From: Elusimicrobiota bacterium
GTDB taxonomy: Bacteria > Elusimicrobiota > UBA8919
DNA: 64,000 nt
Assembly: GCA_028718185.1 (NCBI GenBank)
Contig: JAQUMH010000004.1
Location: 10,334 to 74,333, forward strand
Direction of reading: 5' to 3'
Both the position numbers and the translations under genes were made by a program. How positions within the stretch are numbered: the stretch's first letter is position 1; each line of letters opens with the position of its first letter. Below are positions 16,783-45,734 of the stretch, piece after piece. The notes under the pieces were generated by a model. The model was not told the origin of the DNA. It was given only the letters and a program-made list of their open reading frames with translations, and did not search any database.

Positions 16783-17856
16783 TTATTGGCAATATACCTC
16801 AAACTCAAACAATGAATATCCGTAATTCGTTCCTCTTGCGGTTCCATTCATCCTGACATACCTACCACTGCCTTTTAACGGTATTTCTTCTATACCACCA
16901 ATACCGTCTGTCTTTGTATATATTGTTGTCCATTTATTGTCATCATTTGATACTTGTATATCGTAGTCCTTACCATATGCTGCTTCCCAGTTCAGAACTA
17001 CTTTTTTGATATCGTAAACAGCACCAAGGTCTATTCGTATCCATTGTGGATCACTAGATGCTGATGCCCAGCGTGTTGCCGCATCACCGTCTACTGCTCC
17101 TTCTATCGGTGTCGCCCCACTTTCAATAGACGATGCTGTTACAGGTTTTCCTTTTGCAATATTACCGGCAACACTTGCTTGCTTTTTAACAGCAACTGTT
17201 TTAACCGGTTTTTCTTCCGCTCCGGCATCACTTTGTGCACCTTCGTATTTTAAAGTAATATAATCAAAATTACCGACTGCTTCTGCACCGTTAGTGTCCA
17301 TAGCCAACTTCATTACGTGTTTTCCTTCACTTAAACTTACTCCTGTCTTTGTCAGTGTTTGCCAAGTCTGCCAGCTGCCTGTATCAGGTACTGTTATAGG
17401 TCCTGTCTTGTCCACATCATCAAACTCTATGTGAAAAGTACCGCCTTTACCACCTGCTGCCGCTTGTATTTCTATCGTATATGTCCCTGCTGTCTTTATA
17501 TCTACCGTATATTTTAACCACTCACCTGCCGTAACCCAGCCAACATCATAACCTCCGGCAGTACCATTGGTTTCTATATCTACTCCTTCATCAAGACGAT
17601 ATTGTTCCCCATAATTCCTTGCTTCTTTGTCGTGATATCCTACACCTTCTCCGCCCTTGTCAAAATCTTCTGCTTCAATCTTTATATCTGCTACTGACCC
17701 TTTCTTTTTAGCAGCAGTTTTACTTGTTTTATCGTCACTTTGCTTAGCAGCAGTTGTCTTTTTACTGATAACTTTCTTCTTCGCCTCAACTTGCCCCACG
17801 CAAGTCAAACAAATCCCAAACACTATCCCTAAAACTATCCAGTTCCTCATCTTCAA
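16783..17856 (-). CDS. Secreted lectin-like protein with CBM6 plus an F5/8 type C (discoidin) domain.
   Basis: Signal peptide MKMRNWIVLGIVFGICLTCVGQVEA. CBM6 reads IEAEDFD...GEWLKYTVDI...FHIEF...MKLAMD. The discoidin region reads ATRWAS...WIRIDLGAVYDIKKVVLNWEAAYGKDYDIQVS...GRYVRMNG...YSLFEFEVY. A strong SD (AAGGAGGT) is present. Confidence 0.7.
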   Translation of the reverse strand: MKMRNWIVLGIVFGICLTCVGQVEAKKKVISKKTTAAKQSDDKTSKTAAKKKGSVADIKIEAEDFDKGGEGVGYHDKEARNYGEQYRLDEGVDIETNGTAGGYDVGWVTAGEWLKYTVDIKTAGTYTIEIQAAAGGKGGTFHIEFDDVDKTGPITVPDTGSWQTWQTLTKTGVSLSEGKHVMKLAMDTNGAEAVGNFDYITLKYEGAQSDAGAEEKPVKTVAVKKQASVAGNIAKGKPVTASSIESGATPIEGAVDGDAATRWASASSDPQWIRIDLGAVYDIKKVVLNWEAAYGKDYDIQVSNDDNKWTTIYTKTDGIGGIEEIPLKGSGRYVRMNGTARGTNYGYSLFEFEVYCQ

Positions 17857-17879: not shown

Positions 17880-17990
17880 AACGCGTAATGTGTGTTATAG
17901 CGTTTTAGAGTTATAGGGTTTTAGGGTTTGACTTTAAAATTAGTTGAACCCCATAAACTCTATAACACTACGAACCCTATAACTCTTTTC
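17880..17990. repeat. CTATAAC/GTTATAG-family inverted repeat between the start of the lectin gene and the stop of the next gene.
   Basis: gttatagcgttttagagttatagggttttagggtt ... aaccccataaactctataacactacgaaccctataactc. Confidence 0.5.
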
Positions 17991-20701
17991 TACTTTACCG
18001 TCACATTTACCTGGCTCACACCGGTTAGATAATTATCATCTACAGCATGAACCGTTATTATGTGTTTCCCTTTTGAATGACCGGCGGTATTCCATTGATA
18101 TTCAGGACTTGACGATATTTTGACAAGTTTATTATCTATAAAATAACGGTAAGAAACTACAGGGTTGTCTGATTCAGAATTTTTTGTGGCACTAACCGCA
18201 ATTTTGGTTGTTCCGCCTAATTTGGCATTTTTTAACGGTGCAGTTATTGTAACAGACGGCGATAATTTAAAGAAGTTATCATCAAACACTTTGTCATATT
18301 TTGCTCTTTCTTCCGGACTTAAAGCATAGAGCTTAAATATTCCCATGCCAAGACCAGCCATTCGAGGTGATTCTGCACGTAAATATTTTATCCACAAATC
18401 AATATCCGCCGGATGACCGTGAAAATCATCTCCACCGCTTAGTATACCTAAGGTTTTACCTTCAAGGTCAAAGTACTTTACCCAGTCAGTATATTTCTTG
18501 ATATATGTTCTGTATTCCTTGGTCCCCGGGTAAATATATATCTCCGGTTTGTAAAGACTTACTATATCGCTTGCACTAGCCATTAATTCATCAAAAGCAT
18601 CACCATAATATGCAGCAACTATAAAAAAATCGGGGAATTGTTTTTTCACCCGCCTGAGCGCTGCAATGGATTCTTTGACCCGGTTATCCCAATCCCCGGC
18701 AGACCATTCGTCAATTGATAGACCATAATATCCTTCATTGGCAATCTTGAAATAGGTATTATACATTTTTTCTTCAGTGTCAAGATATCCCGGATTATCA
18801 GCTTTTGATGCATCATCCCTGCTAGCATATGTAAACGGTATCGGTAGTTTACCTTTTGCAATCATTTCATCGTGCCATGATTTAGTCATCCACTTATAAC
18901 CGGAAAAATTCATGGTTTCATGAGGTTGCTCGCCACTTCCTGCACACCAATAAATAACATATGGCGGGTTTATAGGTGCAAGATTAGGATTTGGGAATAC
19001 TGCTCCTTCATGAAAAAGCAAATTATTGTTTGGCGGTGTAAGAGAAATTTTAAAATTATTATCTGATATGTCCCCGGGACTTCCCGTTACATCCTGTACA
19101 CGTATCTTGCAAGCAATACTATCAGTATCTGGAACTATTATTGTTTCGCTACCATCATTAGCTATATTCGGAACTATTGTTGTCCAGTTAGTTCCACCGT
19201 CTGTTGATAAATCTACATTTACATTTCCTACTGTACCTTGCGTTGACCATGTTACTGCTTTCTTACTGCCTGCTACCCAATTTTCACTGCCATTAGGTGC
19301 TGTTACTTTTATTTCCGGATTTAGTTGCCCTTCACTTAATATATTAATATAATCAAAATTACCAATAGCCTCGTTACCTACAGTATCCATTACCAACTTC
19401 ATTATATGTTTCCCCGCACTTAAACTTATCCCTGTCTTCTTTAGTGTTTGAAAATTCTGCCAACTACCCGTATTAGGAACTGTTATTTGTCCTGTTTTAT
19501 CTATGTCATCAAACTCTATGTGAAAATTACCGCCATTGCCTTCACATCCTGCACTAACTTCTATAGTATATGTTCCAGCTGTCTTTGCATTTATCGTATA
19601 TTTTAACCATTCACCTGCCATAACCCAGCCAATATCATTACCCCCACTCGCTCCACTATAGGACTCGACATCTACATCCATTTTTTTTCGGTAAGCGTTC
19701 TCCGGCTCACCTGTCGGTATATCGCGATACATTGCGTTACCTTTCGTTGTATCGTAATATGATATACCTTGACCGCCATTATCAAAATCTTCGGCTTCTA
19801 TCTTGCATGGAATCTGAAATGGGACTCCCTTATATGGAACAGTTACACTTATAGCTTTTGTAGTGTTACTAGGACTATTTGATACAACTGACCAGTTTGG
19901 GACTTCATCTGCTGTCTTTATTCCAAAATAGTATTTTGTTGAAGGTGAAAGTCCAACAATTGTGAATGCCTCCTGATTAAATACCTGTTGTGCTGCCGGT
20001 GTCCCCTGAACTTTAGTTGCAGAATCCCAGTTTGCATCTGTTATCGGCGAAAGTGAGTATCGTATATCATACGGTATATACCGTGAAGCCAGATGATATA
20101 ACCATTGTGATTGCGGAGTAGGTTTTTGACGATTCATATCATATGGTATATATTTTGCAGCCTGACCATTACTGTTGTCATCGTTGCCTGGAGCGGACCA
20201 TGTAAGAGTTATTGAATTCGGCGTCGGGTCACTTGTTGCAAGGTCTGTTATTTTGCCGGGTGGTGTTGTATCTGTAAGAGCAGATGTTGTTGCACTCGGT
20301 GATTTGGATAATGGAGACCAGTTTGGAACTTCATCTCCTGCTTTTATTGCAAAGTAGTATTTTGTTGAAGGTGTAAGTCCAAAAACAATAAATGATTCCG
20401 CAGAACCGGCAAGATTTGGAACCATATTTACTGTAGCCTTAGTAGCTGAATTCCAGTCTGCTTCTGTGTTTATCGGTGAAAGTGAATATCTGATATCATA
20501 TTTGGCTGCTGTGCCTGAATTACCATCGTCGCCAACAGACCGCCATACTAGCGTGATTGTTTTAGGAGTCGGAAATGCAGTAAGAAAATATGTTATTTTA
20601 GCAGGTGGTGTTGTGTCAGCTATACCGAACAAGACACTAACACTTGTAAATATACCCAACATAAAAATGCATACTACTTTCAACAAATTTTGTCTGGACA
20701 T
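17990..20701 (-). CDS. Secreted FN3 x3, CBM6, GEVED-like beta-sandwich protein with a C-terminal conserved domain of about 330 aa of unknown function (possible TIM-barrel glycoside-hydrolase-like). Paralog 1 of 3; no CTD.
   Basis: Signal peptide MSRQNLLKVVCIFMLGIFTSVSVLFG. FN3 reads TPPAKITYF...YDIRYSLSP...YYFAIKAGDEVPNWS. CBM6 reads IEAEDFDNGGQG...GEWLKYTIN...FHIEF...MKLVMD. The conserved C-terminal domain contains ...YWCAGSGEQPHETMNFSGYKW...GYYGLSIDEW...FFIVAAYYGD...ADIDLWIKYLRAESP.... SD is GGGGGG. Confidence 0.65.
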   Translation of the reverse strand: MSRQNLLKVVCIFMLGIFTSVSVLFGIADTTPPAKITYFLTAFPTPKTITLVWRSVGDDGNSGTAAKYDIRYSLSPINTEADWNSATKATVNMVPNLAGSAESFIVFGLTPSTKYYFAIKAGDEVPNWSPLSKSPSATTSALTDTTPPGKITDLATSDPTPNSITLTWSAPGNDDNSNGQAAKYIPYDMNRQKPTPQSQWLYHLASRYIPYDIRYSLSPITDANWDSATKVQGTPAAQQVFNQEAFTIVGLSPSTKYYFGIKTADEVPNWSVVSNSPSNTTKAISVTVPYKGVPFQIPCKIEAEDFDNGGQGISYYDTTKGNAMYRDIPTGEPENAYRKKMDVDVESYSGASGGNDIGWVMAGEWLKYTINAKTAGTYTIEVSAGCEGNGGNFHIEFDDIDKTGQITVPNTGSWQNFQTLKKTGISLSAGKHIMKLVMDTVGNEAIGNFDYINILSEGQLNPEIKVTAPNGSENWVAGSKKAVTWSTQGTVGNVNVDLSTDGGTNWTTIVPNIANDGSETIIVPDTDSIACKIRVQDVTGSPGDISDNNFKISLTPPNNNLLFHEGAVFPNPNLAPINPPYVIYWCAGSGEQPHETMNFSGYKWMTKSWHDEMIAKGKLPIPFTYASRDDASKADNPGYLDTEEKMYNTYFKIANEGYYGLSIDEWSAGDWDNRVKESIAALRRVKKQFPDFFIVAAYYGDAFDELMASASDIVSLYKPEIYIYPGTKEYRTYIKKYTDWVKYFDLEGKTLGILSGGDDFHGHPADIDLWIKYLRAESPRMAGLGMGIFKLYALSPEERAKYDKVFDDNFFKLSPSVTITAPLKNAKLGGTTKIAVSATKNSESDNPVVSYRYFIDNKLVKISSSPEYQWNTAGHSKGKHIITVHAVDDNYLTGVSQVNVTVK

Positions 20702-20867
20702 TTACCCCCCAATGAAAACAGTGCGATAGTGAGATAGTGCGATGGTGCTATAGTGGAACAAGAAGCAATAACAAGTATTAAAAATCTTACTTCTTGCATC
20801 TTGTTTCTTGCTTCCAATGTTTCTGACATCGGACATTGGACTTCGGACGCCTCTGCTTTTTTTTATT

Positions 20868-23357
20868 TTACTCTGCTGTCTTGAACTGCATTTTGGTTAA
20901 ATATCTTAATTGGTATACGGTGAATCCTATTAATATAAAACCTATTAACCAGCTCATTGCTGTTGCCATTCCAAATCTTAAGTTAAAAAATGCTGTTTTA
21001 AATATTAATAATTCCGATACGTTTGTTTTTCCGGCTGGTCCGCCATCTGTCATTGCTAATATAAAATCTACTGACCTAAATGCTGATATAAATGCACCTA
21101 CAAAACTTATCGTGATTAACGGTTTGATTGTAGGTATAGTTACATTCCATAATTTTTGCCAGATGTTAGAACCATCTATGTCTGCTGCTTCATATAAATC
21201 TTCAGGTATAGTCTTTAGTGCAGCCAGATAAATGAGACAACCAGGTCCCACAGATGCCCAAATAATAGGTATTATTACACAAAACATAGCAAAATTGGGG
21301 CTTTGGAGCCAATCCTGAGGAAGGATTTTACTTCCAGAAATAAGAGTTAAAATTTTGTTTAATATTCCATTATTTGATGGTTCATAGAAACTTTTCCATA
21401 ATAATACTACTATTATGCTACTTATTACGCTGGGTAAATAAAATATTACTCTGAAAAATACTTTACCTTTTGGTACTTCATGTAACATTATAGCAAGGAA
21501 TATTGGCGAGAAAAAACCTAAACCAAGCATTAAACCTGCAAAATATATACTATGCCACAACGTCAGCCAGAATTCTTGATTAAAAAGTACATTTACAAAA
21601 TTATCTAAACCTACGAAAGTGCTTCCCCCAAGTACTTTGTAATCCAAAAAAGCCATAATAGTACCGCGTATCGTAGGAACATACTGCCACAGTACCATAC
21701 CAAACACAGCCGGAACGAGTATCAAATATGCAATCCAGTATTTCTTGAATCCCCATCCTGTTTTGGTTCCTTCAGGAGTAAATACTTTCATAATATATAT
21801 AAACGCAAAAATGAAAGTTAAAAAAATAACAATAGCTAAAGATAATGCCACTTTTCGTCTAAATGCCATTTTCTTCGGCGGAATTATTCCTATCATCTTC
21901 TCATTTGTCTTAGCAACTGCTATGTCTAATAGTTCTTTTATACGTTTTTTTGCAACTTCAGGCGGTTTAGTACCAAGTTTTTCTAATATTGCTAATTCTA
22001 AAGGTTCAGATACATAACCATAAGCCTCAGCACAGTTTTTACCATATGGCTCAGGAACACCGTTGTATAATGCTTCCTTGTATTTCTCTTCCCACCCTTT
22101 AGGTACATATTTTAAGTATTCGGTATAACCATATTTTCTAAGTAGTGCAGGATTAATAAAATTACCGTAACCATTCTCTACATATACTTTAGTGCGAATT
22201 TTATCTGCTTCAGGACTTCCCCAAAAATATACAAATTTCCATGCTGCATCAAGAACATCAGGGTCTTTTATTCCTGAAAATATACCCATCATAGAACAAT
22301 TAAGTTCCGAACCCCTTAATCCGGTAGGACCTTTTGGTACCGGAGCTATTCCGACAATTTGCGGATCTACCTCAGCGATCATTTCTGCATTAAAATAAAA
22401 TTGGAGCATACCCATCTTACCTGTTTTCCATTTTGTATAATACCAATCAGTGCCATAGAAAGCTGCACCATCAATAGTTTTACCATTTTTCACAAAAGGT
22501 TGTTGTATGAGTCGAAGCCAAAAATAAACTGCTTCCACCGCTTCTGGTGTATTAAAAACTGCGTGCCATTCTCCGGTCTTATCTTGTTCAACAAATCTTG
22601 CGCCTGCAGATAAAAGTAGAAAATAAAAATTCCATGAAGCACCTCCACCACTTGTGAATTGAGTGCCATAAATGCCTTTTTCAGGATCGGCAATTTTGCG
22701 GGCGTATTCTATATATTCTTCCCATGTTTCGGGTGGATGTTCAGGGTTAAGGCCGGCATCATAAAATAAATCTTTACGGTAAGCAAAACCCATAATCCAA
22801 TTTTCATATGGGACTGCCCACCAGTGTTTAGTCCCCCCATCCGGTCCTTCACGATATACTACCGGGATTGCACCGGGAACGATTCTTTCTTTAAGTTCTT
22901 CTTTAGGCATTTGTTCTATAAATTTATCAAGTGGCTGCAAAAACCCCTGTTGAATAAAAAAATCTGACTTTTTAAAATTAACGCTAATAATATCCGGAGC
23001 AATGCCGCCTGCTATTGACATAAGTGTTCCATTTTCAGGTCCCAGAACCGATTGATTAGAAGCAACACCGCCGGACTCTATAATTTCTATCCAGGGATAT
23101 TTTTCTTTGAATGCCCGAAGAACGTGCCTATTACACATTGTTGGCGCTCTTGAATCATCAGGTCTTGGAAGACCGACACTTTTTTCAACAACCAATCTTA
23201 CTTTTTTGTGGTTTTCCTGTGTATATGAGGGTGTTGTAGAAAAAACATTCAAAAGCGAGGTAATTGTTAGCAGAAAAAAAACTTTTTTTAACAAGAAATG
23301 ATCACCACTTTTATTTTTCATTTTCCATAACTCCTTTTTTAATATTAATGGACTCAT
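20868..23357 (-). CDS. Single-polypeptide fusion of a family-1 extracellular solute-binding protein (sugar-type SBP) with a MalF/UgpA-like ABC permease domain. Copy 1.
   Basis: The N-terminal roughly 480 aa show SBP_bac_1-like features (TWEEYIEYARKI, WNFYFLLLSAG). There is then a TM segment and a permease with the EAA loop (EAADIDGSNIWQKLWNVTIPT). The likely true start is ATG at 23321 (MKNKSGDHFLLKKVFFLLTITSLL, a signal peptide after AAGGAG). Confidence 0.65.
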   Translation of the reverse strand: MSPLILKKELWKMKNKSGDHFLLKKVFFLLTITSLLNVFSTTPSYTQENHKKVRLVVEKSVGLPRPDDSRAPTMCNRHVLRAFKEKYPWIEIIESGGVASNQSVLGPENGTLMSIAGGIAPDIISVNFKKSDFFIQQGFLQPLDKFIEQMPKEELKERIVPGAIPVVYREGPDGGTKHWWAVPYENWIMGFAYRKDLFYDAGLNPEHPPETWEEYIEYARKIADPEKGIYGTQFTSGGGASWNFYFLLLSAGARFVEQDKTGEWHAVFNTPEAVEAVYFWLRLIQQPFVKNGKTIDGAAFYGTDWYYTKWKTGKMGMLQFYFNAEMIAEVDPQIVGIAPVPKGPTGLRGSELNCSMMGIFSGIKDPDVLDAAWKFVYFWGSPEADKIRTKVYVENGYGNFINPALLRKYGYTEYLKYVPKGWEEKYKEALYNGVPEPYGKNCAEAYGYVSEPLELAILEKLGTKPPEVAKKRIKELLDIAVAKTNEKMIGIIPPKKMAFRRKVALSLAIVIFLTFIFAFIYIMKVFTPEGTKTGWGFKKYWIAYLILVPAVFGMVLWQYVPTIRGTIMAFLDYKVLGGSTFVGLDNFVNVLFNQEFWLTLWHSIYFAGLMLGLGFFSPIFLAIMLHEVPKGKVFFRVIFYLPSVISSIIVVLLWKSFYEPSNNGILNKILTLISGSKILPQDWLQSPNFAMFCVIIPIIWASVGPGCLIYLAALKTIPEDLYEAADIDGSNIWQKLWNVTIPTIKPLITISFVGAFISAFRSVDFILAMTDGGPAGKTNVSELLIFKTAFFNLRFGMATAMSWLIGFILIGFTVYQLRYLTKMQFKTAE

Positions 23358-23563
23358 TATAACAAATTTTCTTTATTTGTCAAATAATATTAAAAAAGTT
23401 TTTTAATAGCCTATGTAGTGATTAATGTACAATAAAACAAGAAGCAAGTATTCTAAATCTTACTTCTTGCATCTTGTTTCTTGCTTCAAGTGTTAGTACG
23501 TCGAACCTAACCCACCACTAAACCGTGCGTGCAAGGACATAGACTAAGGACATTGGATTGTCT

Positions 23564-26239
23564 TTATAACTTTACATTTACCTGGCTTACGCCGGCAAGG
23601 TAGTCATCTGCCACTGCATGCACAGTTATTATATGATTGCCTTTTGAATAACCGGTAGTATTCCATAAGTACTCAGGGCTTGATGATATTTTTACGAGTT
23701 TATTATCTATAAAATAACGATAAGACACAACAGGATTACCTGTTTCAGAATTTTTAGTAGCATTTACTGAAATTTTAACTGTGCCTTTAACTAAAGCATT
23801 TTTAGCCGGTGAAATTATAGAAACAGATGGTGATTGCTTGAAGAAATCATCATCCATCACCTTATCATATTTTGCTCTTTCAGGAGCAGATAAAGCATAG
23901 AGTTTAAATATTGATATCCCAAGACTAGCCATCCTTGGTGATTCTGCACGCAAGTACTTTATCCATAAGTCAATGTCTGCCGGCTGTCCGTGGAAGTCGT
24001 CTCCACCGCTCAATATGCCGATATTCTTACTTTCTAGTCCATAATATTTTAACCAGTCAGTCCACTTCTTGATATACGATCCGTAGTCCTTGGACCCGGG
24101 ATAAATATATATCTCCGATTCATAAATATTTATTATATCGCTTGCACTCGCCATTGTATCATCAAAACCATCACCATAGTAAGCAGCAACCATGAACGTA
24201 TTTGGATATTGTTTTCTAACCCTCCTTAACGCGTTGATAGATTCCTTGACACGGTCATCCGTTTCCCATGTAACCCATTCGTCTATTTCTATACCATAAT
24301 ATCCTTCCTGTGCAATCTTTAAATATTTATTATACATCTTTTCTTCAGTATCAAGAAACTCAGGATTAGCGCTTTGTGAAGCGTTATTTCTTGATGCATA
24401 TGTAAATGGTATCGGTAGTTTTCCTTTTGCTATCATTTCATCATGCCACGTTTTGTCAGCCCATTTATAACCTGCATAATTTACCGTTTCGTGAGGCTGC
24501 TCGCCGGGACCGGCTCGCCAGGAAATAAGATATGGCGGATTTACAGGTGCGAGATTGGGATTTGGGAATACTGCTCCTTCGTAAAAAAGTAATTTGTCAT
24601 TTGGCGGAGTAAGAGAAATTTTAAAATTAGCATTTGACGTGTCACTATACTTACCATTAATATCTCGTACCCGTATCTTACAATTACTGCTCGCTTTATT
24701 TGGAACTATTATTGGCTCACTACCATCATTTGCTGTATTTGAGACTATTGTTATCCAGTTCGCTCCCCCGTCTGTTGATAAATCTATATTTATATTCCCC
24801 AAGTTACCTTGACTTGTCCATGTCACTTTGCTTTGATTACCTGTTATCCAATTCTCCCCGCCGTTAGGTGATGTAACTGTTATGCCCGGTTTTAATTGCC
24901 CTTCACTTATTATATTTATATAATCAAAATTACCGGTTGCCTCGTTACCGGTTGTATCCATTGCTAACTTCATAATATGTTTTCCTGCACTTAAACTTAC
25001 CCCTGTCTTCTTTATAGTTTGCCAAATCTGAAACCCGCCTGTATTAGGAACCGTCATTGTACCTGTTTTATCAACGTCATCAAACTCTATATGAAAATTA
25101 CCGCCACTACCACCACATCCTACTCTCACTTCTACTGTATATGTCCCTGCTGTTTTTACATTGACTGTATATTTTAGAAATTCATTTGCATAAACCCAGC
25201 CAATATCATAACCTCCGCCTGCATCATTACAAGGTTCAATATCAACATCTTCTGCTGTACGGTACGAATTTCCTGAATTACGAGGTGTTGTATCATAATA
25301 TGCTACGCCTTGTCCGCCATTATCAAAATCTTCAGCTTCTATCTTACAGGGTATCTGAAACGGGATTCCTTTATATGGAGTAGTTATACCTATAGCTTTT
25401 GTAGTGCCACTAGGACTATTTGATACGACTGACCAGTTAGGAACTTCATCTGCCGTCTTTATAGCAAAATAATACTTCGTTGAAGGTTTAAGACCAACAA
25501 CGCTGAATGTCACTTGATTAAATACCTCTTGTGCTGTCGGTGTATCTTTTACTTTAGTTGCAGAATCCCAGTTTGCATCAGTTATCGGTGTCAACGAGTA
25601 TCTAATATCATATGGTATATATCTTGAAGCTAGACGAAGTAGAAATTGTGATTCCGGGATTGGTTTTTCACGATTCATATCATATGGAATATATCCTGCA
25701 GCTTGACCTTTACTATTGTCATCGTTGCCGGGAGTGGTCCATGTAAGAGTTATTGAGTTTGCAGTTGGGTTACTTGCTGCAAGGTCTGTTATTTTACCGG
25801 GTGGTGTTGTATCTGTAAGAGCAGGTGTTGTTGCACTCAGTGATTTAGATAATGGTGACCAGTTAGGAACTTCATCTCCTGCTTTAATTGCAAAATAGTA
25901 TTTGGTTGAAGGTGTAAGTCCAAAGACAATAAATGATTCCGCAGAACCCGCAGAATTTGGAGTGAGGTCACATTTAATCTTTGTAGCTGAACTCCATTCT
26001 GCTTCTGTTGTTATAGGTGAAAGGGAATACCTGATATCATATTTTGTTGCTGTACCTGAATTACCATCATTCCCGACAGACCGCCATACAAGCGTGACTG
26101 TCTTGGCAGTCGGATATGCAGTCGTAAAATACGTTATCTTGGCAGGTGGTGTAGTATCAGTTATACCAAGTAATACATTTCCCGCAAACATACTTACAAA
26201 AAACATACAACATAATCTTAACAATTTTTGCATGAACAT
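23564..26239 (-). CDS. FN3 x3, CBM6, GEVED-like protein with the unknown 330 aa C-terminal domain. Paralog 2 of 3.
   Basis: About 70-80% identical to 17990-20701 throughout. Signal peptide MFMQKLLRLCCMFFVSMFAGNVLLG. SD is AAGGGGGT. Confidence 0.65.
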   Translation of the reverse strand: MFMQKLLRLCCMFFVSMFAGNVLLGITDTTPPAKITYFTTAYPTAKTVTLVWRSVGNDGNSGTATKYDIRYSLSPITTEAEWSSATKIKCDLTPNSAGSAESFIVFGLTPSTKYYFAIKAGDEVPNWSPLSKSLSATTPALTDTTPPGKITDLAASNPTANSITLTWTTPGNDDNSKGQAAGYIPYDMNREKPIPESQFLLRLASRYIPYDIRYSLTPITDANWDSATKVKDTPTAQEVFNQVTFSVVGLKPSTKYYFAIKTADEVPNWSVVSNSPSGTTKAIGITTPYKGIPFQIPCKIEAEDFDNGGQGVAYYDTTPRNSGNSYRTAEDVDIEPCNDAGGGYDIGWVYANEFLKYTVNVKTAGTYTVEVRVGCGGSGGNFHIEFDDVDKTGTMTVPNTGGFQIWQTIKKTGVSLSAGKHIMKLAMDTTGNEATGNFDYINIISEGQLKPGITVTSPNGGENWITGNQSKVTWTSQGNLGNINIDLSTDGGANWITIVSNTANDGSEPIIVPNKASSNCKIRVRDINGKYSDTSNANFKISLTPPNDKLLFYEGAVFPNPNLAPVNPPYLISWRAGPGEQPHETVNYAGYKWADKTWHDEMIAKGKLPIPFTYASRNNASQSANPEFLDTEEKMYNKYLKIAQEGYYGIEIDEWVTWETDDRVKESINALRRVRKQYPNTFMVAAYYGDGFDDTMASASDIINIYESEIYIYPGSKDYGSYIKKWTDWLKYYGLESKNIGILSGGDDFHGQPADIDLWIKYLRAESPRMASLGISIFKLYALSAPERAKYDKVMDDDFFKQSPSVSIISPAKNALVKGTVKISVNATKNSETGNPVVSYRYFIDNKLVKISSSPEYLWNTTGYSKGNHIITVHAVADDYLAGVSQVNVKL

Positions 26240-26418
26240 TAAAATACCCCCTTTTTGAAATATGCTTCGCGTAATTTATTGTAATTTATAGTAATATGTT
26301 GTTTAATTTCTATAAATTTCTTAATTTCCATAAGTTTCAATATTTAATTTTTTTGAACATTGAACCTCGCCCACCACTAAATCGTCGGTGGGCAGGGACA
26401 TCAGACTAATGACTGTCT

Positions 26419-29139
26419 TTATAACCTTACATTTACTTGGCTTACTCCAGCAAGATAATCATCTGCTACTGCGTGAACTGTTATTATATGATTGCCTTTT
26501 GAATATCCGGTAGTATTCCAGATGTACTCAGGATTTGATGATATCTTTACAAGTTTGTTATCTATGAAATAACGATAAGATACAACAGGATTACCTGTTT
26601 CTGAATTTTTTGCAGCACTTACCGCAATTTTGACCGTTCCTCTTAGTTTTGCATTGTTTGTCGGTGTGGTTATAGAAACAGATGGTGATAGTTTAAAGAA
26701 GTTATCATCCATCACCTTGTCAAACTCTGCCCTTTCAGGAGTAGACAATGCATAAAGTTTAAATATTGATATCCCAAGACCTGCCATTTGAGGCGATTCT
26801 GCACGCAAGTACTTTATCCATAAGTCAATATCTGCAGGATGGCCATGGAAGTCGTCTCCACCACTCAGTATTCCGATATTCTTACCTTCGAATCCGTAGT
26901 ACTTTATCCAATCAGTCCATTTCTTGATATATGTTCTGTAGTCCTTGGACCCGGGATAAATATATATCTCCGGCTCATAAATATTTATTATATCGCTTGC
27001 ACTCGCCATCGTATCATCAAAACCATCACCATAATAACCAGCAGTCATGAAAACATTGGGGTATTGCTTTTTCACTCGTCTGAGTGCATTAATAGATTCC
27101 TTGACCCGGTCGTCAGTTTCCCATGCAACCCATTCGTCAATTTCTATGCCATAATATCCTTCCTGTGCGATCTTTATATATTTATTATACATCTTTTCTT
27201 CAGTATCAAGAAACTCCGGATTAGCACTTTGTTTTGCATCATTTCTTGAAGCATATGTAAACGGTATCGGTAATTTTCCTTTTGTTATCATTTCATCATG
27301 CCATGACTTGTCAGCCCATTTATAGCCGGCATAATTTACTGTTTCGTGAGGCTGTTCGCCGGGACCGGCTCGCCAAGAAATAAGATATGGCGGATTTACA
27401 GGTGCGAGATTGGGATTTGGATATACTGCACCTTCATAGAAAAGTAACTTGTCATTCGGCGGAGTAAGAGAAATTTTAAAATTATTATTTGATATACCAA
27501 CAGGACTGCCGTTTATATCTTGTACCCGTATCTTGCAAGCACTACTATCTATATTTGGAACTATTATTGTTTCACTACCATCATTAGCTGTATTAGATAC
27601 TATTGTTGTCCATTTCGTTCCCCCATCTGTTGATAAATCTATATTTACATTCCCTACTGTCCCTTGTGTTGTCCATGTCACTACCTTTTTGCTACTTGCT
27701 ACCCAATTCTCGTTTCCATAAGGTAATGTTACTATTATAACTGGTTTTAATTGGCCTTCACTTATTATATTTATATAATCAAAATTACCGGTTGCCTCAG
27801 TGCCGGAAGTATCCATTATCAACTTCATAATATGCTTCCCTGCACTTAAACTTACCCCTGTCTTCTTTAGTGTTTGAAAAGTCTGCCATCCACCGGTATT
27901 AGGAACTGTCATTTGCCCTGTTTTATCAACATCATCAAACTCTATATGGAAATTACCGCCATTACCTCCACATCCTACTTGTACTTCTATTGTGTATGTT
28001 CCTGCGGCTTTTGTATTTATTGTATATTTTAACCATTCACCAGCCATAACCCAGCCAATATCATAACCCCCGCTCGCTCCGCTATAGGGTTCAACATCAA
28101 CATCTACTTTTTTCCTGTATGCATTTTCCGGTTCACCTGTCGGAATATCGCGATACACTGCGTTACCTTTTGTTGTATCGTAATATGATACGCCTTGACC
28201 GCCATTATCAAAATCTTCTAATTCTATTTTACAGGGTATCTGAAACGGGACTCCTTTATATGGCGTAGTTAGACCTAAAGCTTTTGTAGTTTCACATGGA
28301 CTGTTTGATACAACTGACCAGTTTGGGACTTCATCTGCCGTCTTTATTGCAAAATAATATTTTGTTGAAGGCGAAAGACCGACAACTGTGAACATCTCTT
28401 GATTGAATACCTGTTGTGCTGCCGGTGTCCCCTGGACTTTAGTTGCAGAATCCCAGTTTGCATCTGTTATCGGAGACAATGAGTATCGTATATCATACGG
28501 TATATACCGTGAAGCTAAACGATATAACCATTGTGATTGAGGGGTTGGATTTTGGCGGTTCATATCATATGGTATATATCTTGCAGCCTGACCATTACTG
28601 TTATCATCGTTGGCTGGAGCGGACCATTTAAGTGTTATTGAGTTTGGTGTCGGGTCGTTTGTTGTAAGGTCTGTTATTTTACCGGGTGGTATTGTATCTG
28701 TAAGAGCAGGTGTTGTCCCGCTCGGTGATTTAGATAACGGTGACCAGTTAGGGACTTCATCTCCTGCCTTGATTGCAAAGTAATATTTGGTTGAAGGTGA
28801 AAGACCAAAAACAATAAATGATTCCGCAGAACTCGCAGAACTTGGAGTGAGGTCACATATAATCTTTGTAGCTGAATTCCATTCTGCTTCTGTTGTTATC
28901 GGTGAAAGTGAATACCTGATATCATATTTTGTTGCAGTACCTGAATTACCATCATCCCCGACAGATCGCCATACAAGCGTGACTGTCTTGGCAGTCGGAT
29001 ATGCAGTTAGAAAATACGTTATCTTGGCAGGTGGTGTAGTATCAGTTATACCAAACAATACATTTCCCGCAAACATACCCAATACAAACATGCATACTAC
29101 AAAATTGCATACTACTTTCAACAACTTTTGCATAGACAT
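26419..29139 (-). CDS. FN3 x3, CBM6, GEVED-like protein with the unknown 330 aa C-terminal domain. Paralog 3 of 3.
   Basis: Same architecture. Signal peptide MSMQKLLKVVCNFVVCMFVLGMFAGNVLFG. SD is GGGGGT. Confidence 0.65.
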   Translation of the reverse strand: MSMQKLLKVVCNFVVCMFVLGMFAGNVLFGITDTTPPAKITYFLTAYPTAKTVTLVWRSVGDDGNSGTATKYDIRYSLSPITTEAEWNSATKIICDLTPSSASSAESFIVFGLSPSTKYYFAIKAGDEVPNWSPLSKSPSGTTPALTDTIPPGKITDLTTNDPTPNSITLKWSAPANDDNSNGQAARYIPYDMNRQNPTPQSQWLYRLASRYIPYDIRYSLSPITDANWDSATKVQGTPAAQQVFNQEMFTVVGLSPSTKYYFAIKTADEVPNWSVVSNSPCETTKALGLTTPYKGVPFQIPCKIELEDFDNGGQGVSYYDTTKGNAVYRDIPTGEPENAYRKKVDVDVEPYSGASGGYDIGWVMAGEWLKYTINTKAAGTYTIEVQVGCGGNGGNFHIEFDDVDKTGQMTVPNTGGWQTFQTLKKTGVSLSAGKHIMKLIMDTSGTEATGNFDYINIISEGQLKPVIIVTLPYGNENWVASSKKVVTWTTQGTVGNVNIDLSTDGGTKWTTIVSNTANDGSETIIVPNIDSSACKIRVQDINGSPVGISNNNFKISLTPPNDKLLFYEGAVYPNPNLAPVNPPYLISWRAGPGEQPHETVNYAGYKWADKSWHDEMITKGKLPIPFTYASRNDAKQSANPEFLDTEEKMYNKYIKIAQEGYYGIEIDEWVAWETDDRVKESINALRRVKKQYPNVFMTAGYYGDGFDDTMASASDIINIYEPEIYIYPGSKDYRTYIKKWTDWIKYYGFEGKNIGILSGGDDFHGHPADIDLWIKYLRAESPQMAGLGISIFKLYALSTPERAEFDKVMDDNFFKLSPSVSITTPTNNAKLRGTVKIAVSAAKNSETGNPVVSYRYFIDNKLVKISSNPEYIWNTTGYSKGNHIITVHAVADDYLAGVSQVNVRL

Positions 29140-29149
29140 TAAATACCCC

Positions 29150-29225
29150 CAATTAGGTTATAGAGTTATAGGGTTTTTAACTCTATAAACTCTACGAACC
29201 CTATGAACACTATAACTCTTTTTTT
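29150..29225. repeat. CTATAAC/GTTATAG-family inverted repeat.
   Basis: gttatagagttatagggtt ... aactctataaactctacgaaccctatgaacactataactc. Confidence 0.5.
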
Positions 29226-31666
29226 TATTCCGCCGTTTTGAATTGCATTTTAGTTAAATATCTTAATTGGTATACGGTAAATCCTATTAAAATAAAACCT
29301 AATAACCAGCTCATGGCGGTTGCTATCCCGAATTTTAAATATACAAATGCATTATAAAATATTTCTAAATCCAATACATTTGTTGCTCTAGCCGGCCCGC
29401 CACCTGTCATTATCAATATATAACCTGCTGACTGGAATGCTCCTATAAAAGCACCTACAAAACTTATTATGATTAAAGGTCTAATTGTGGGAATAGTAAC
29501 ATTCCATAATTTTTGCCATATGTTAGAACCATCTATGTCCGCTGCTTCGTATAAATCTTCAGGTATCGTCTTTAATGCAGCAAGATAAATAAGACACCCC
29601 GGTCCGACAGACGCCCAGACAATTGGTATAACAACACATAGCATAGCCAAATTGGGATCTTGAAGCCATTTCACCGGAAGTATTTTACCCCCGGAAATAA
29701 GAGCTAAAATTATATTTAATATTCCATTTGGTGTGGGGTCATAGAAACTTTTCCATAAAAGGATCACTACTATACCACTTATCACAGCAGGTAAATAAAA
29801 TATTACCCTAAAAAATATTTTGCCTTTTGGTATTTCATGTAACATTACAGCAAGAATTATCGGCGAGAAAAAACTTAAACCAAGAATTAAACTTGCATAA
29901 TATACAGTATGCCACAATGCCTGCCAGAATAATTTATCAAAAAGCACATTTGCAAAATTATCTATACCTATAAACTTGCTTCCCCCAAGTATCTTGTAAT
30001 CCAAAAAAGCCATAATAACACCGCGAAGTGTGGGAATATACTGCCATATTATCATACTTAATGCAGCAGGAAGAAGTATTAAATATGCAATCCAGTATTT
30101 CTTGAATCCCCAGCCGGCTTTGGCTCCTTCCGGCGTAAATACTTTCATAATATATATTAAAGCAAAAATGAAACTTAAAAAAACTACGATAGCTAAAGAT
30201 AATGCTACTCTCCTTCTAAATGCCAATTTCTTCGGTGGAACTATTCCTATCATTTTCTCATTTGTCTCAGCGACTGCTATATCCAATAGTTGCTTTATGC
30301 GTTTTCTTGCAATTTCAGGAGGTTTGCTGCCTAAGTTTTCTATCAATGCTAATTCTAATGGTTGTGATACATAGCCGTATGTCTCAGCGCAGTTTTTACC
30401 GTATGGTTCAGGAACACCGTTGTATAATGCTTCTTTGTATTTATCTTCCCATCCCTTTGGAGCGTATTTTAAGTATTCTGTATAACCGTATTTTCTAAGT
30501 TGTACAGGATTTAGAAAATTACCATAACCGTTCTCAACATATACTTTAGTGCGTATTTTTTCTGCTTCAGGACCGCCCCAAAAATACACAAATTTCCACG
30601 CTGCATCAAGAACATCCGGGTCTTTAATACCTGAAAATATTCCAAGCATTGAACAATTAAGTTCTGAACCTCTTATGCCTGTTGGTCCTTTTGGAACCGG
30701 TGCTATTCCGATAAGTTGCGGATTTACTTCGGCTATCATTTCTGACTTAAAATAAAATTGACGCATACCTACTCTGCCGGCATTCCAGTCAGCATAAGCA
30801 TCAGGACCGTAGTATGACGTACCATGGATAGTCTTACCATTTTTTACAAACGGTTGTTGTATAAGGCGAGTATAAAAATAAACTGCTTCTACTGCTTCGG
30901 GCGTATTATAAACTGCTCTCCATTCGCCATTTTTATTTTGTTCAACAAATCTTGCTCCTGCAGATAAAAGAAGAAAATAAAAATTCCAGGAAGCAGCCCC
31001 ACCGTTTATAAATTGAGTACCATAAATACCCTTATCAGGATTTGTAATTTTGCGTGCGTATTCCAAATATTCTTCCCATGTATCAGGCGGACGGTCCGGA
31101 TCAAGTCCGGCATCATAAAACAAATCTTTGCGATAGATAAAACCCATAATTTCTTTTGTATATGGAAACGCCCACCAGTGTTTTTCATCAGTCGGTCCAT
31201 CACGGTACATTACAGGAACTGCGGCAGGTAGAACTCTGTCTTCAACTTCTTTTTTAGGCAATTTCTCTATGAACCCGTCAAGCGGATACAAAAGACCTTC
31301 ACGGATAAAAAAATCTGATGTAGCGAAACCAAGACCGAAAATATCAGGAGCGAGACCGCTTGCTATTAACATAAGTCGTCCAACTTCAGGTCCCAAAGCT
31401 GAAGCACTGGAAGATACACCGCCGGACTCTACAATTTCTATCCAGGGATATTTTTCTTTGAATGCCCGTAGAACAGCCCTGTTGCACATTGTCGGCGGTC
31501 TTGAATCATCAGGTCTCGGAAGACCGACCCCTTTTTCAACGACCAATCTGACTTTTTTATGATTTTCCTGCGAAGCAAAGAGTGTTACGCGGAAAATATT
31601 GAATAGTAAAACAATCACCGATAAAAAACGTATTTTTTTTATTAATAAATATTTTTTACTTTTCAT
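29225..31666 (-). CDS. SBP plus MalF-like permease fusion. Copy 2, paralog of 20868-23357.
   Basis: Collinear with copy 1 at high identity. It shares the EAADIDGSNIWQKLWNVTIPT motif and the same C-terminal ...YQLRYLTKMQFKTAE. Confidence 0.65.
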   Translation of the reverse strand: MKSKKYLLIKKIRFLSVIVLLFNIFRVTLFASQENHKKVRLVVEKGVGLPRPDDSRPPTMCNRAVLRAFKEKYPWIEIVESGGVSSSASALGPEVGRLMLIASGLAPDIFGLGFATSDFFIREGLLYPLDGFIEKLPKKEVEDRVLPAAVPVMYRDGPTDEKHWWAFPYTKEIMGFIYRKDLFYDAGLDPDRPPDTWEEYLEYARKITNPDKGIYGTQFINGGAASWNFYFLLLSAGARFVEQNKNGEWRAVYNTPEAVEAVYFYTRLIQQPFVKNGKTIHGTSYYGPDAYADWNAGRVGMRQFYFKSEMIAEVNPQLIGIAPVPKGPTGIRGSELNCSMLGIFSGIKDPDVLDAAWKFVYFWGGPEAEKIRTKVYVENGYGNFLNPVQLRKYGYTEYLKYAPKGWEDKYKEALYNGVPEPYGKNCAETYGYVSQPLELALIENLGSKPPEIARKRIKQLLDIAVAETNEKMIGIVPPKKLAFRRRVALSLAIVVFLSFIFALIYIMKVFTPEGAKAGWGFKKYWIAYLILLPAALSMIIWQYIPTLRGVIMAFLDYKILGGSKFIGIDNFANVLFDKLFWQALWHTVYYASLILGLSFFSPIILAVMLHEIPKGKIFFRVIFYLPAVISGIVVILLWKSFYDPTPNGILNIILALISGGKILPVKWLQDPNLAMLCVVIPIVWASVGPGCLIYLAALKTIPEDLYEAADIDGSNIWQKLWNVTIPTIRPLIIISFVGAFIGAFQSAGYILIMTGGGPARATNVLDLEIFYNAFVYLKFGIATAMSWLLGFILIGFTVYQLRYLTKMQFKTAE

Positions 31667-31834
31667 TTTTCAGTTCTATCCTTTTTTCTTATTAAGTTCT
31701 TATGTTTCTTAATACAATTAGCCAAAATATTTATAATGTACAACGTATTTATTATTTTAATCTTACCTATTGCATCTTATCTTTTGCTTCTGATGTTAGA
31801 CATCGGACATCGGACTACGGACAGTCATTCTTTT

Positions 31835-33310: not shown

Positions 33311-33335
33311 TCTATTAATTTTCCTTAGTAGTAAT

Positions 33336-45647: not shown

Positions 45648-45734
45648 ATTTTCCCCCTTATAGTTTTTAATTTCGCTTATTGTTATTTTCATAAAGCTCT
45701 CCAATTTAGTACTGTTCTTGTGTTCTCGGTTTAT

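What the first reader, a model, noticed from the sequence alone, without database searches (positions are those of the whole stretch)
17990..31666. Tandemly duplicated two-gene module: SBP-permease fusion next to an FN3-CBM6 protein with an unknown conserved domain
Genes 20868-23357 and 29225-31666 each encode one polypeptide. A complete sugar-type solute-binding protein (about 480 aa, with signal peptide) is fused through a TM segment to a MalF/UgpA-like permease (EAA motif present).

Fusion of a CUT1-family SBP to its permease is rare. No MalG-like partner or ATPase is nearby. Each is flanked by a paralog of an approximately 900 aa secreted FN3 x3 / CBM6 / beta-sandwich protein (17990-20701, 23564-26239, 26419-29139). 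The five genes form a duplicated unit.

The module may couple capture of a surface glycan (CBM6 plus unknown domain) to uptake of the released sugar.
Basis: partly seen in the sequence, partly recalled or inferred. Interest (0 to 1): 0.6.

Follow-up and report, generated by a model that had tools for sequence, protein, structure and literature searches.

The report
Tethered-binding-protein sugar transporter genes, duplicated
An uncultured Elusimicrobiota genome carries two copies of a sugar-importer subunit whose binding protein is welded to its membrane channel. Each copy sits next to secreted enzymes with a previously unclassified barrel-shaped domain, and the fusion turns out to belong to a widespread but apparently undescribed transporter design.

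Summary
Two 813-817 aa genes each encode a signal peptide, a CUT1-type solute-binding protein, one extra TM helix and a MalF/UgpA-type permease with an EAA loop. They are interleaved with three paralogous ~900 aa secreted proteins. The array is a diverged duplication (78-84% nt identity, dN/dS about 0.2).

A frameshift artefact is very unlikely, because more than 100 full-length homologues from about ten phyla share the architecture.

- **Not a rarity.** The fusion forms a sizeable family.
- **A partner exists elsewhere.** In 9 of 9 loci outside the window it is followed by a "long MalG" of 625-969 aa. That protein carries a roughly 390 aa periplasmic insert. The window lacks it, but what is almost certainly the same MAG encodes one canonical pair on another contig. 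The window copies are therefore orphaned duplicates, probably using that MalG and an unlinked ATPase in trans.
- **The "unknown domain" looks catalytic.** It is a confidently predicted (beta/alpha)8 barrel (pLDDT 89.5). It has an invariant Asp-Glu on beta4 and Glu on beta6, and no match to Pfam, NCBIfam or PDB sequences. Only 14 relatives exist among 1.84 billion representatives, so it is probably a new glycoside-hydrolase-like family.

Substrate, subunit stoichiometry and ATPase remain unknown.

The parts
20868..23321 (-). fus1: fused SBP-TM0-MalF/UgpA-type permease, 817 aa. The ORF listing start at 23357 is probably inside the promoter.
   Evidence: (P0001, 100% identity, 817 aa)
21882..23219 (-). 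fus1 extracytoplasmic CUT1-type solute-binding domain (about aa 35-480)
   Evidence: Pfam SBP_bac_1 and SBP_bac_8. The family profile hits solved CUT1 SBPs.
21789..21845 (-). fus1 linker transmembrane helix TM0 (LSLAIVIFLTFIFAFIYIM), which carries the chain from periplasm to cytoplasm
   Evidence: Hydropathy 2.74. Conserved across the family.
20871..21734 (-). fus1 six-TM MalF/UgpA-type core with EAA loop (about 21141-21230)
   Evidence: Profile hits AlgM1, SugA and MalF chains.
29225..31666 (-). fus2: paralogous fused SBP-TM0-permease, 813 aa. SBP about 30239-31573, TM0 30146-30202, TMD core 29228-30091.
   Evidence: 76% identity to fus1; P0002
17990..20701 (-). fnA: secreted FN3x2-CBM6-beta-sandwich-X barrel-Big_7 protein, 903 aa. 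X about 18269-19027.
   Evidence: MDD5687539
23564..26239 (-). fnB: paralogue, 891 aa, with a 10 aa deletion in CBM6. X about 23840-24598.
26419..29139 (-). fnC: paralogue, 906 aa. CBM6 27766-28119, X barrel 26695-27453, Big_7 26422-26691.
26968..27138 (-). Candidate catalytic residues of X in fnC. Asp-Glu (model D115/E116, codons 27133-27138) lies at the end of beta4. Glu (E171, codons 26968-26970) lies at the end of beta6.
   Evidence: Invariant in 14 sequences. Strand positions come from DSSP of the model.
53528..54325 (-). Fourth copy of domain X, inside the 1505 aa FN3/F5-8C/CTD protein (ORF 50930-55447)
   Evidence: P0245 is identical to this ORF and 63% identical to the fnC X domain
23356..23383 (-). 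Perfect sigma-70-like promoter (TTGACA-16-TG-TATAAT) in front of fus1
   Evidence: 12/12 match. Sequence. This is a consensus match only.
23436..23478 (-). Terminator-like hairpin followed by a U-run, lying between fnB and fus1. It is part of a ~60 nt element also found upstream of fnA (20783-20814) and, degraded, upstream of fus2.
   Evidence: z = -3.5
31835..35846 (-). Upstream same-strand genes: six-hairpin GH-like (31835-33310), ceramidase-N-like (33336-34589) and DegT-type aminotransferase (34590-35846)
16783..17856 (-). Downstream same-strand CBM6 + F5/8 type C lectin-like protein

Best explanation
The region is a lineage-specific, tandemly amplified part of a glycan-utilisation gene array in an uncultured Elusimicrobiota bacterium.

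**The fusion genes.** fus1 and fus2 are subunits of a CUT1-type (type I) ABC importer. The solute-binding protein is covalently tethered to the MalF/UgpA-type membrane subunit by one extra TM helix. They derive from a conserved two-gene cassette, fusion plus 'long MalG', that is widespread in PVC-group, Elusimicrobiota and allied candidate phyla.

In this genome the fusion half has been duplicated away from its partner. The orphan copies most likely assemble in trans with the single long MalG (MDD5688421, next to the third paralogue P0003) and an unlinked MalK/MsiK-type ATPase. They would then act as alternative binding-plus-channel modules with one tethered SBP per complex.

**The neighbouring proteins.** fnA, fnB and fnC are secreted enzymes. 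Two FN3 domains and a CBM6 would target a polysaccharide. A (beta/alpha)8-barrel domain of a new, nearly lineage-restricted family is proposed to cleave it, using Asp-Glu on beta4 and Glu on beta6. The products would be captured by the tethered SBPs.

**Shown:**
- the architecture, topology parity, family spread and cassette rule
- absence of MalG in the window and purifying selection on the genes
- the predicted barrel fold and its invariant residues

**Inferred:** trans assembly, enzymatic activity, the substrate link and sharing of one ATPase.
For: **Fusion is real.**
- Both domains lie in one frame in two paralogues.
- At least 120 full-length homologues of 740-1025 aa carry both Pfam domains.
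- The linker and TM0 are conserved across phyla.
- Topology parity is correct.
- The family profile hits separate solved CUT1 SBP chains and the AlgM1, SugA and MalF chains.

**Cassette rule.** The fusion is immediately followed by a 625-969 aa MalG/UgpE-type protein in L001/2, L003/4/5, L006, L007, L011, L012, L013, L014 and L019. No ATPase is adjacent in any of them, so an unlinked ATPase is the family norm.

**Orphan state.** No MalG is in the window. No long MalG from the 225,942 bp or 970,161 bp contigs appears among the top 120 hits, whereas partners of nearly all other close homologues do.

**Same genome.**
- Accessions MDD5686511, 7540, 7543, 8420 and 8421 fall within about 1,900 numbers.
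- X paralogues MDD5687059 and MDD5688265 fall in the same range.
- Logan run SRR22315506 contains proteins of both the 44.9 kb and the 970 kb contigs.

**Still functional.**
- dN/dS is 0.17-0.22 in SBP and TMD.
- The orphan TMDs are no more diverged from outgroups than the canonical P0003 is.
- The EAA region is 90-96% identical among P0001-P0003.

**Domain X.**
- AF2 gives pLDDT 89.5 and pTM 0.89 with eight beta-alpha units.
- D115, E116, E171, K200 and R226 are invariant.
- The Foldseek top hits that cover the barrel are TIM-barrel glycosidases of GH5, GH2, GH18, GH25, GH66 and GH191.
Against: - The full genome could not be searched. A second MalG, or a MalG closer to the window, cannot be excluded, and the ATPase was never seen.
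- 'Same MAG' rests on accession contiguity and a shared sequencing run, not on an assembly record.
- No evidence shows that a MalF-type subunit can be exchanged on a shared MalG.
- fus1 has its own promoter-like site and a terminator-like hairpin upstream. Co-expression with the fn genes is therefore not established.
- The fn-fusion pairing is not seen in any other genome, so functional coupling is supported only by adjacency here.
- Structural matches of X are generic (TM 0.4-0.5) and include aldolases and KDO8P synthase, so a non-glycosidase barrel enzyme remains possible.
- The substrate is unknown.
Confidence: 0.5

Rival explanations
1. The two fusion proteins need no MalG. They form a fus1-fus2 heterodimer, or homodimers, of MalF-type TMDs. 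This would give a transporter with two tethered SBPs, as in OpuA or GlnPQ, powered by an unlinked ATPase.
For: - Two paralogues are encoded 6 kb apart with no MalG in 64 kb.
- SBD-fused importers known from the literature (OpuA, GlnPQ: PMC11065425, PMC8025302) have homodimeric TMDs.
- The N-terminal SBP lobe is the most diverged part (60-62% identity). That fits two different binding specificities in one complex.
Against: - All nine homologous loci pair the fusion with a MalG-type subunit.
- Both window TMDs are UgpA/MalF-type, and the MalG model scores far lower.
- There is no acceleration of TMD evolution, which a change of partner might cause.
- CUT1 translocators are heterodimeric as far as is known (established knowledge).
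- fus1 and fus2 are separated by two genes, a terminator-like hairpin and a promoter-like site.
Confidence: 0.2
2. The fusion is an artefact. A sequencing or assembly frameshift, or a lost stop codon, has merged a separate SBP gene and a permease gene.
For: None beyond the a priori rarity of such fusions in characterised systems.
Against: - Two diverged paralogues (20% nt difference) keep the same uninterrupted frame.
- More than 100 independent assemblies from many phyla and several assembly pipelines encode the same 780-930 aa architecture.
- The junction contains a conserved dedicated TM helix and linker motif (TNEKMIGIIPP...FRR) that neither a free SBP nor a free permease would need.
- Topology only works with this extra helix.
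Confidence: 0.01
3. The orphan fusions are not transporters. They could be decaying duplicates, or could have been recruited as membrane-anchored glycan sensors or receptors for the neighbouring secreted proteins, without a translocation function.
For: - No partner TMD or ATPase is in the window.
- AraC-type regulators lie in the window.
- Juxtaposition with surface and secreted proteins is specific to this genome.
Against: - Purifying selection acts on the TMD as strongly as on the SBP (dN/dS 0.22 against 0.17).
- The ATPase-contacting EAA loop is 96% identical between the copies and retains all family-invariant residues.
- There are no frameshifts or stop codons.
Confidence: 0.1
4. The FN3-CBM6-X-Big_7 proteins are non-catalytic glycan-binding or adhesion proteins. 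Domain X would be a structural or binding module.
For: - Binding and Ig-like domains (FN3, CBM6, Big_7) are abundant in these proteins.
- X has no sequence match to any known enzyme family.
Against: - X is a full (beta/alpha)8 barrel.
- Its few invariant residues are mostly charged and lie at or near the barrel strands: Asp-Glu at the end of beta4, Glu at the end of beta6, Lys just before beta7, and Arg in the helix that follows. This clustering is typical of catalytic barrels.
- The Foldseek hits that cover the barrel are predominantly glycosidases.
Confidence: 0.2

Closest known systems
CUT1-family ABC importers: MalEFGK2, UgpBAEC, LpqY-SugABC, AlgQ-AlgM1M2SS
   Same: - The SBP half is of SBP_bac_1 type.
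- The TMD half is MalF/UgpA/AlgM1/SugA-like with an EAA loop.
- Relatives have a MalG/UgpE-type second subunit.
- An unlinked ATPase is common in this family, as with MsiK and MsmK (PMC4519317, PMC7658222).
   Different: - SBP and TMD form one polypeptide joined by an extra TM helix.
- The partner MalG carries a ~390 aa periplasmic insert in loop P1.
- In the window the partner gene is absent.
SBD-fused type I importers OpuA (OTCN family) and GlnPQ (PAO family)
   Same: The substrate-binding domain is covalently tethered to the translocator (PMC11065425, PMC8025302).
   Different: - They belong to different ABC subfamilies and different SBP clusters.
- Those systems have homodimeric TMDs, giving 2 or 4 SBDs. 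Here the family norm is a heterodimer partner, hence one SBD.
- GlnP fuses its SBDs N-terminally behind a signal sequence, with no dedicated extra helix of this kind (from my own knowledge).
E. coli MalF periplasmic P2 loop
   Same: It is a large periplasmic domain inserted in a TMD loop that contacts the binding protein (PMC6906923). It is conceptually similar to the long-MalG insert seen in relatives.
   Different: - The insert is in the MalG-type subunit, in loop P1.
- It is about 390 aa, built of repeats that weakly match a GH42 segment, and unrelated in sequence to P2.
TIM-barrel glycoside hydrolases: GH18-like (3co4, 6xyz), GH191/TM1410 (2aam, 9eux), GH5, GH25
   Same: - The (beta/alpha)8 fold.
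- Acidic residues at the C-terminal ends of beta4 and beta6.
   Different: - No sequence-level membership in any of these families.
- TM-scores are only 0.4-0.5.
- The IDE[WYF] and PExY motifs are not the signature of any of these families.

Membership tests
CUT1 (TC 3.A.1.1) type I ABC sugar importer | Cluster-D / SBP_bac_1-type solute-binding protein | tested here: met
   SBP_bac_1 at E 1.9e-27 and 7.7e-29. The family profile hits the trehalose/maltose-binding protein and other solved sugar SBPs.
CUT1 (TC 3.A.1.1) type I ABC sugar importer | MalF/UgpA-type six-TM permease core with a cytoplasmic EAA loop | tested here: met
   BPD_transp_1. UgpA at E 3e-29 and MalF at E 7e-20. AlgM1, SugA and MalF chains are hit. 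The EAA sequence is present and predicted cytoplasmic.
CUT1 (TC 3.A.1.1) type I ABC sugar importer | Second, MalG/UgpE-type permease subunit encoded with the first | tested here: not met
   tblastn of two long MalG proteins against the window finds only the EAA regions of fus1 and fus2. The feature is met in 9 of 9 homologous loci elsewhere.
CUT1 (TC 3.A.1.1) type I ABC sugar importer | MalK/MsiK-type ATPase | not testable with these tools
   None is in the window. The only ABC_tran domains belong to exporter-type half transporters at 58471-62183. The genome is not in genome contigs. None of the homologous loci has an adjacent ATPase.
SBD-fused ABC importers (OpuA / GlnPQ class) | Substrate-binding domain and TMD in one polypeptide | tested here: met
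SBD-fused ABC importers (OpuA / GlnPQ class) | Membership of the OTCN or PAO subfamilies (SBP clusters F) | tested here: not met
   Both halves are CUT1-type.
SBD-fused ABC importers (OpuA / GlnPQ class) | Homodimeric TMD giving two or four tethered SBDs per complex | tested here: inconclusive
   Relatives always have a distinct MalG-type partner, which argues for one SBD per complex. The window copies lack an adjacent partner.
(beta/alpha)8-barrel glycoside hydrolase | TIM-barrel fold | tested here: met
   AF2 on a 14-sequence alignment gives pLDDT 89.5 and eight strand-helix units. The Foldseek PDB top hits that cover the barrel are TIM-barrel GHs.
(beta/alpha)8-barrel glycoside hydrolase | Conserved catalytic carboxylates at the C-terminal ends of barrel strands | tested here: met
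   D115 and E116 are invariant and lie within strand 111-118. E171 is invariant and lies within strand 167-172. The 3D geometry was not inspected.
(beta/alpha)8-barrel glycoside hydrolase | Sequence membership of a described GH family (Pfam, NCBIfam or a solved homologue) | tested here: not met
   X has no hit in Pfam, NCBIfam or PDB sequences, by single sequence or by profile.
(beta/alpha)8-barrel glycoside hydrolase | Glycosidic bond cleavage | not testable with these tools
   Needs biochemistry.
GH135 (Sph3-like), a lead from memory | Structural similarity to Sph3, and a shared Asp-Glu ... Glu spacing | tested here: inconclusive

The most novel reading that the evidence does not exclude
The fusion plus long-MalG cassette defines an undescribed, phylogenetically widespread subclass of type I ABC importers. 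It has a tethered binding protein on one TMD and a ~390 aa periplasmic domain on the other.

In this Elusimicrobiota genome the SBP-TMD half has been amplified into exchangeable specificity modules. These would compete for one shared MalG/ATPase core. The two copies in this window each sit beside members of a new glycoside-hydrolase family.
Probability: 0.3. Interest if true: 0.7.

Novelty: new variant of a known kind. Interest (0 to 1): 0.55.

Why it matters
- **Transporter design.** Tethering of the binding protein has been studied only in amino-acid and osmolyte importers (GlnPQ, OpuA), where it shapes kinetics and cooperativity. A large natural family of sugar-type importers with a tethered SBP and a giant periplasmic MalG domain would be a new model for how SBP docking is organised. 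It spans many poorly known phyla.
- **Subunit exchange.** If the orphan copies really swap onto a shared core, this would be a new way of diversifying ABC importer specificity.
- **Enzyme discovery.** Domain X is a candidate new carbohydrate-active enzyme family, found almost only in this lineage.

Tried and rejected
- **Frameshift artefact.** Rejected on the evidence.
- **X related to the long-MalG insert.** I tested whether the FN3-CBM6 proteins are related to the periplasmic insert of the long MalG, as if replacing it. BLASTP shows no similarity.
- **First AF2 run.** The run on X with a 7-row, mostly fragmentary alignment failed (pLDDT 50). It succeeded once distant homologues from the exhaustive HMMER scan were added.
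- **Word-indexed search.** It found only 4 fragments of X and missed the window's own paralogues.
- **Sph3/GH135 lead.** This came from memory and was not confirmed by Foldseek.
- **Genome scan.** The genome-contig scan did not contain this genome, so the genome-wide search for MalG and MalK could not be done.
- **Context look-ups.** They failed for P0001, P0003, P0004 and P0247.
- **Distant X homologues.** Their contexts (L015-L017) show no transporter and no informative neighbours.
- **Rfam.** No hits in the window.
- **Literature.** Four full-text searches found no description of a CUT1 SBP-permease fusion. This is absence of evidence only.
Full report
**What is in the window**

All large ORFs between about 12.6 kb and 56.6 kb lie on the minus strand. 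In transcription order the region of interest contains:
- a DegT-type aminotransferase (34590-35846)
- a ceramidase-N-like protein (33336-34589)
- a six-hairpin GH-like protein (31835-33310)
- fus2 (29225-31666), fnC (26419-29139), fnB (23564-26239), fus1 (20868-23357 or 23321) and fnA (17990-20701)
- a CBM6 + F5/8C protein (16783-17856)

The rest of the window holds:
- giant secreted proteins rich in CBM6, CHB_HEX_C, Big_7, FN3 and PKD domains, several with a Por_Secre_tail/CHU_C-like C-terminus
- three PorV/PorP-like outer-membrane proteins
- two AraC regulators
- a pair of exporter-type ABC half-transporters

The proteins are 100% identical to NCBI entries from an Elusimicrobiota MAG contig of 225,942 bp.

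**The fusion is real**

Each fus gene carries SBP_bac_1/SBP_bac_8 and BPD_transp_1 in one frame. The C-terminal half scores best against UgpA, MalF and archaeal GlcT, the 'first' permease type, and poorly against MalG.

A profile of nine family members hits solved CUT1 binding proteins with its N-terminal half. Its C-terminal half hits AlgM1, SugA and MalF chains. No solved chain covers both halves.

Hydropathy analysis gives, in order:
- an N-terminal signal-like segment
- 463-465 residues of SBP
- a very hydrophobic linker helix, TM0
- an 18-residue basic loop
- six TMs

With the SBP outside, the EAA loop and the C-terminus fall in the cytoplasm, as they must.

The two copies are 76% identical in protein and about 80% identical in DNA, with dN/dS 0.17 (SBP) and 0.22 (TMD).

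At least 120 listed homologues of about 740-1025 aa from many assemblies and phyla show the same architecture. They are 37-71% identical over 68-99% of the query. The linker motif and TM0 are conserved. A frameshift or merge artefact is therefore excluded for practical purposes.

The upstream ATG at 23357 sits in the -10 box of a perfect TTGACA-16-TATAAT promoter match. The NCBI start at 23321 is preceded by GGAG, so I take 23321 as the start.

**The missing partner**

I looked at the gene context of homologues from:
- another Elusimicrobiota genome (L003-L005)
- Coatesbacteria (L019)
- Cloacimonadota (L006)
- Planctomycetota (L007)
- Hydrogenedentota (L012)
- Lentisphaeria (L013)
- two unnamed large contigs (L001/2, L011)

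In every case the fusion gene is immediately followed by a 625-969 aa BPD_transp_1 protein. This protein is MalG/UgpE/GlcU-like in its last ~200 residues. It has a normal TM1, followed by a ~390-residue periplasmic insertion before TM2. The insertion is built of repeats that weakly match a segment of the GH42 model.

No locus has an adjacent ATPase. The canonical unit is thus a two-gene cassette of tethered-SBP MalF plus long MalG, with the ATPase encoded elsewhere.

The window has no such gene. tblastn with two long MalG proteins finds only the EAA regions of fus1 and fus2.

None can be matched to the window contig or to the 970 kb contig that carries the paralogue P0004.

**One genome, four fusions, at least one long MalG**

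The NCBI accessions are:

| Protein | Accession | Contig |
|---|---|---|
| P0004 (fusion) | MDD5686511 | 970 kb |
| fus1 | MDD5687540 | window |
| fus2 | MDD5687543 | window |
| P0003 (fusion, 71% identical) | MDD5688420 | 44.9 kb |
| P0129 (its adjacent long MalG) | MDD5688421 | 44.9 kb |

They span about 1,900 consecutive numbers and are ordered by decreasing contig size. Proteins of the 970 kb and 44.9 kb contigs both occur in Logan run SRR22315506.

I infer a single MAG with one canonical cassette and three orphan fusions. This is inference, since I did not see the assembly record.

The orphans' TMD cores are as close to outgroup sequences as the canonical copy is: 64-70% against 65.5% identity to P0006. 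The EAA region is 90-96% identical among P0001-P0003. This pattern fits continued use of the same type of partner and the same ATPase. It does not prove it.

**The flanking proteins and the unknown domain**

fnA, fnB and fnC are 75-81% identical. Their domain order is:
- signal peptide
- two FN3 domains, the second with a ~30 aa insertion
- CBM6
- an unassigned beta-sandwich
- domain X (about 255 aa)
- Big_7

These assignments rest.

X has no hit in Pfam, NCBIfam or PDB sequences. The word-indexed search found four fragments.

The exhaustive HMMER scan of 1.84 billion representatives found only 14 proteins. One is the window's own 1505 aa ORF 50930-55447, and two more come from the same MAG. 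X is therefore nearly lineage-restricted and is expanded to at least six copies in this genome. In all homologues X is followed by the Big_7-like domain.

With the 14-sequence alignment AlphaFold2 gives pLDDT 89.5 and pTM 0.89, with eight beta-alpha units. The invariant residues are:
- Asp115-Glu116, within beta4 (motif IDE[WYF])
- Glu171, within beta6 (motif PExY)
- Lys200 and Arg226

Foldseek against the PDB returns, for the barrel, mainly TIM-barrel glycosidases of GH5, GH2, GH18, GH25, GH66 and GH191/TM1410. TM-scores are 0.4-0.5, and some aldolase-type barrels appear lower in the list.

I conclude that X is probably the catalytic domain of a new glycoside-hydrolase-like family. The specific family and the substrate cannot be assigned.

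**Is the 'module' a functional unit?**

The pairing of a fusion gene with an X-domain protein was not seen outside this window.
- Three metagenomic loci with X homologues have no such transporter within 10 kb.
- None of the nine homologous fusion loci has an X protein.
- Another X paralogue of the same MAG lies among unrelated genes.

Between fnB and fus1 there is a terminator-like hairpin (z = -3.5) and a strong promoter match. The genes are therefore co-oriented but not demonstrably one operon. Functional coupling of extracellular cleavage to uptake is reasonable for a same-strand glycan-utilisation array, but it is inferred from adjacency only.

**Mechanism proposed**

- *Step 1 (inferred).* The secreted fn enzymes bind a polysaccharide through CBM6 and cut it with the X barrel.
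- *Step 2 (inferred).* Oligosaccharides reach the periplasm.
- *Step 3 (architecture shown, function inferred).* The tethered SBP of fus1 or fus2 captures them and delivers them to the translocator it is attached to.
- *Step 4 (inferred).* The translocator is completed by the long MalG encoded with P0003 and by an unlinked MalK/MsiK-type ATPase. The genome would then use one MalG/ATPase core with several alternative SBP-MalF modules.

The main rival is a MalF-type homo- or heterodimer with two tethered SBPs.

**Comparison with what is known, and novelty**

The parts are ordinary CUT1 parts, and tethered SBDs are known from OpuA and GlnPQ (PMC11065425, PMC8025302). The following appear to be new:
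- the combination of a CUT1 SBP tethered by a dedicated helix to the MalF-type subunit
- a partner MalG with a very large periplasmic domain
- the breadth of this family
- in this window, duplication of the fusion half without its partner

Database annotations call these proteins simply 'extracellular solute-binding protein' or 'sugar transport permease'. Four literature searches found no description.

I rate the finding a new variant of a known kind, with a candidate new enzyme family alongside.

**Verdict**

- Interest is moderate to fairly high (0.55). The architecture would interest ABC-transporter specialists and is testable. However, the key functional claims (partner, ATPase, substrate, enzyme activity) remain inferences.

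Noticed in passing
L001:12454-14331, L003:12450-14333, L011:10451-12736, L012:10574-13483, L019:10412-12292 (not in the window): A 'long MalG' family: MalG/UgpE-type permeases with a ~390 aa (up to ~700 aa) periplasmic insertion between TM1 and TM2. The insertion is made of repeats that weakly match positions ~147-215 of the GH42 Pfam model. These proteins always lie directly downstream of the SBP-MalF fusion. The search returned 1,711 clusters at E<=1e-10, and the top 120 are all of the long form.
   Followed up: partly
window 20763-20848, 23435-23494, 31759-31822 (minus strand): A ~60 nt intergenic element is shared upstream of fnA, fus1 and, in degraded form, fus2. It contains GTCC-rich direct repeats and an exact 32-mer (GAAGCAAGAAACAAGATGCAAGAAGTAAGATT) present twice. 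In the fnB-fus1 spacer it forms a terminator-like hairpin with a U-run. In the fus1-fnA spacer it forms a hairpin without a U-run. There is no Rfam match.
   Followed up: partly
window 50930-55447 (minus strand): A 1505 aa protein with five FN3 stretches (Pfam), X barrel, Big_7, F5/8C and a C-terminal sorting-like domain carries a fourth copy of domain X. The MAG encodes at least six X-domain proteins in total, while the rest of the 1.84-billion-protein library holds only about ten.
   Followed up: yes
window 10202-11164, 44694-45704, 55562-56596 (minus strand): Three PorV/PorP/SprF-like outer-membrane beta-barrel genes each lie just downstream of a giant secreted protein. At least some of those proteins carry a Por_Secre_tail/CHU_C-like C-terminal domain. 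The pattern looks like T9SS cargo plus shuttle pairing, in a phylum (Elusimicrobiota) not usually associated with T9SS.
   Followed up: no
window 17990-29139: The three fn paralogues are mosaics. fnB and fnC are ~90% identical in the X domain. fnA and fnC are ~87-90% identical in the second FN3 and CBM6, and both have a 10 aa CBM6 segment that fnB lacks. This suggests gene conversion or recombination among the copies.
   Followed up: partly
window 19890-20500 and equivalents in fnB and fnC: The second FN3 domain carries a ~30 aa insertion with a duplicated 'RYIPYD' motif (YIPYDMNRQKPTPQSQWLYRLASRYIPYDIRYS). It looks like an internal micro-duplication.
   Followed up: no
window 58471-62183 (minus strand): Two adjacent 591 aa exporter-type ABC half-transporters (ABC_membrane + ABC_tran) are the only ATPase domains in the window. 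They are not of the importer MalK type. A divergent AraC regulator lies at 57578-58375.
   Followed up: no
window 31835-35846 (minus strand): A six-hairpin GH-like protein has no solved homologue by sequence (weak MGH1-like and GDE_C hits). It follows a truncated neutral-ceramidase-N-like protein and a DegT-type aminotransferase whose genes abut one another (34589/34590). This hints at amino-sugar or glycolipid chemistry in the locus.
   Followed up: partly
The word-indexed protein search did not return the window's own X-domain proteins. The exact sequences of fnB and fnC, as read from the longest ORFs, are not in the collection, whereas fnA is. The deposited annotation probably uses different start codons for fnB and fnC.
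   Followed up: no
L001, L011, L012 against L003, L013, L019: The canonical fusion plus long-MalG cassette sits in very different neighbourhoods. Some are housekeeping (RuvX, MltG/YceG, MutL, CarB). Others are glycan-degrading (sulfatases, GH36, GH123-like, GlcNAc 2-epimerase). The SBP itself is strongly conserved across phyla (41-77% identity). No common substrate could be inferred.
   Followed up: partly
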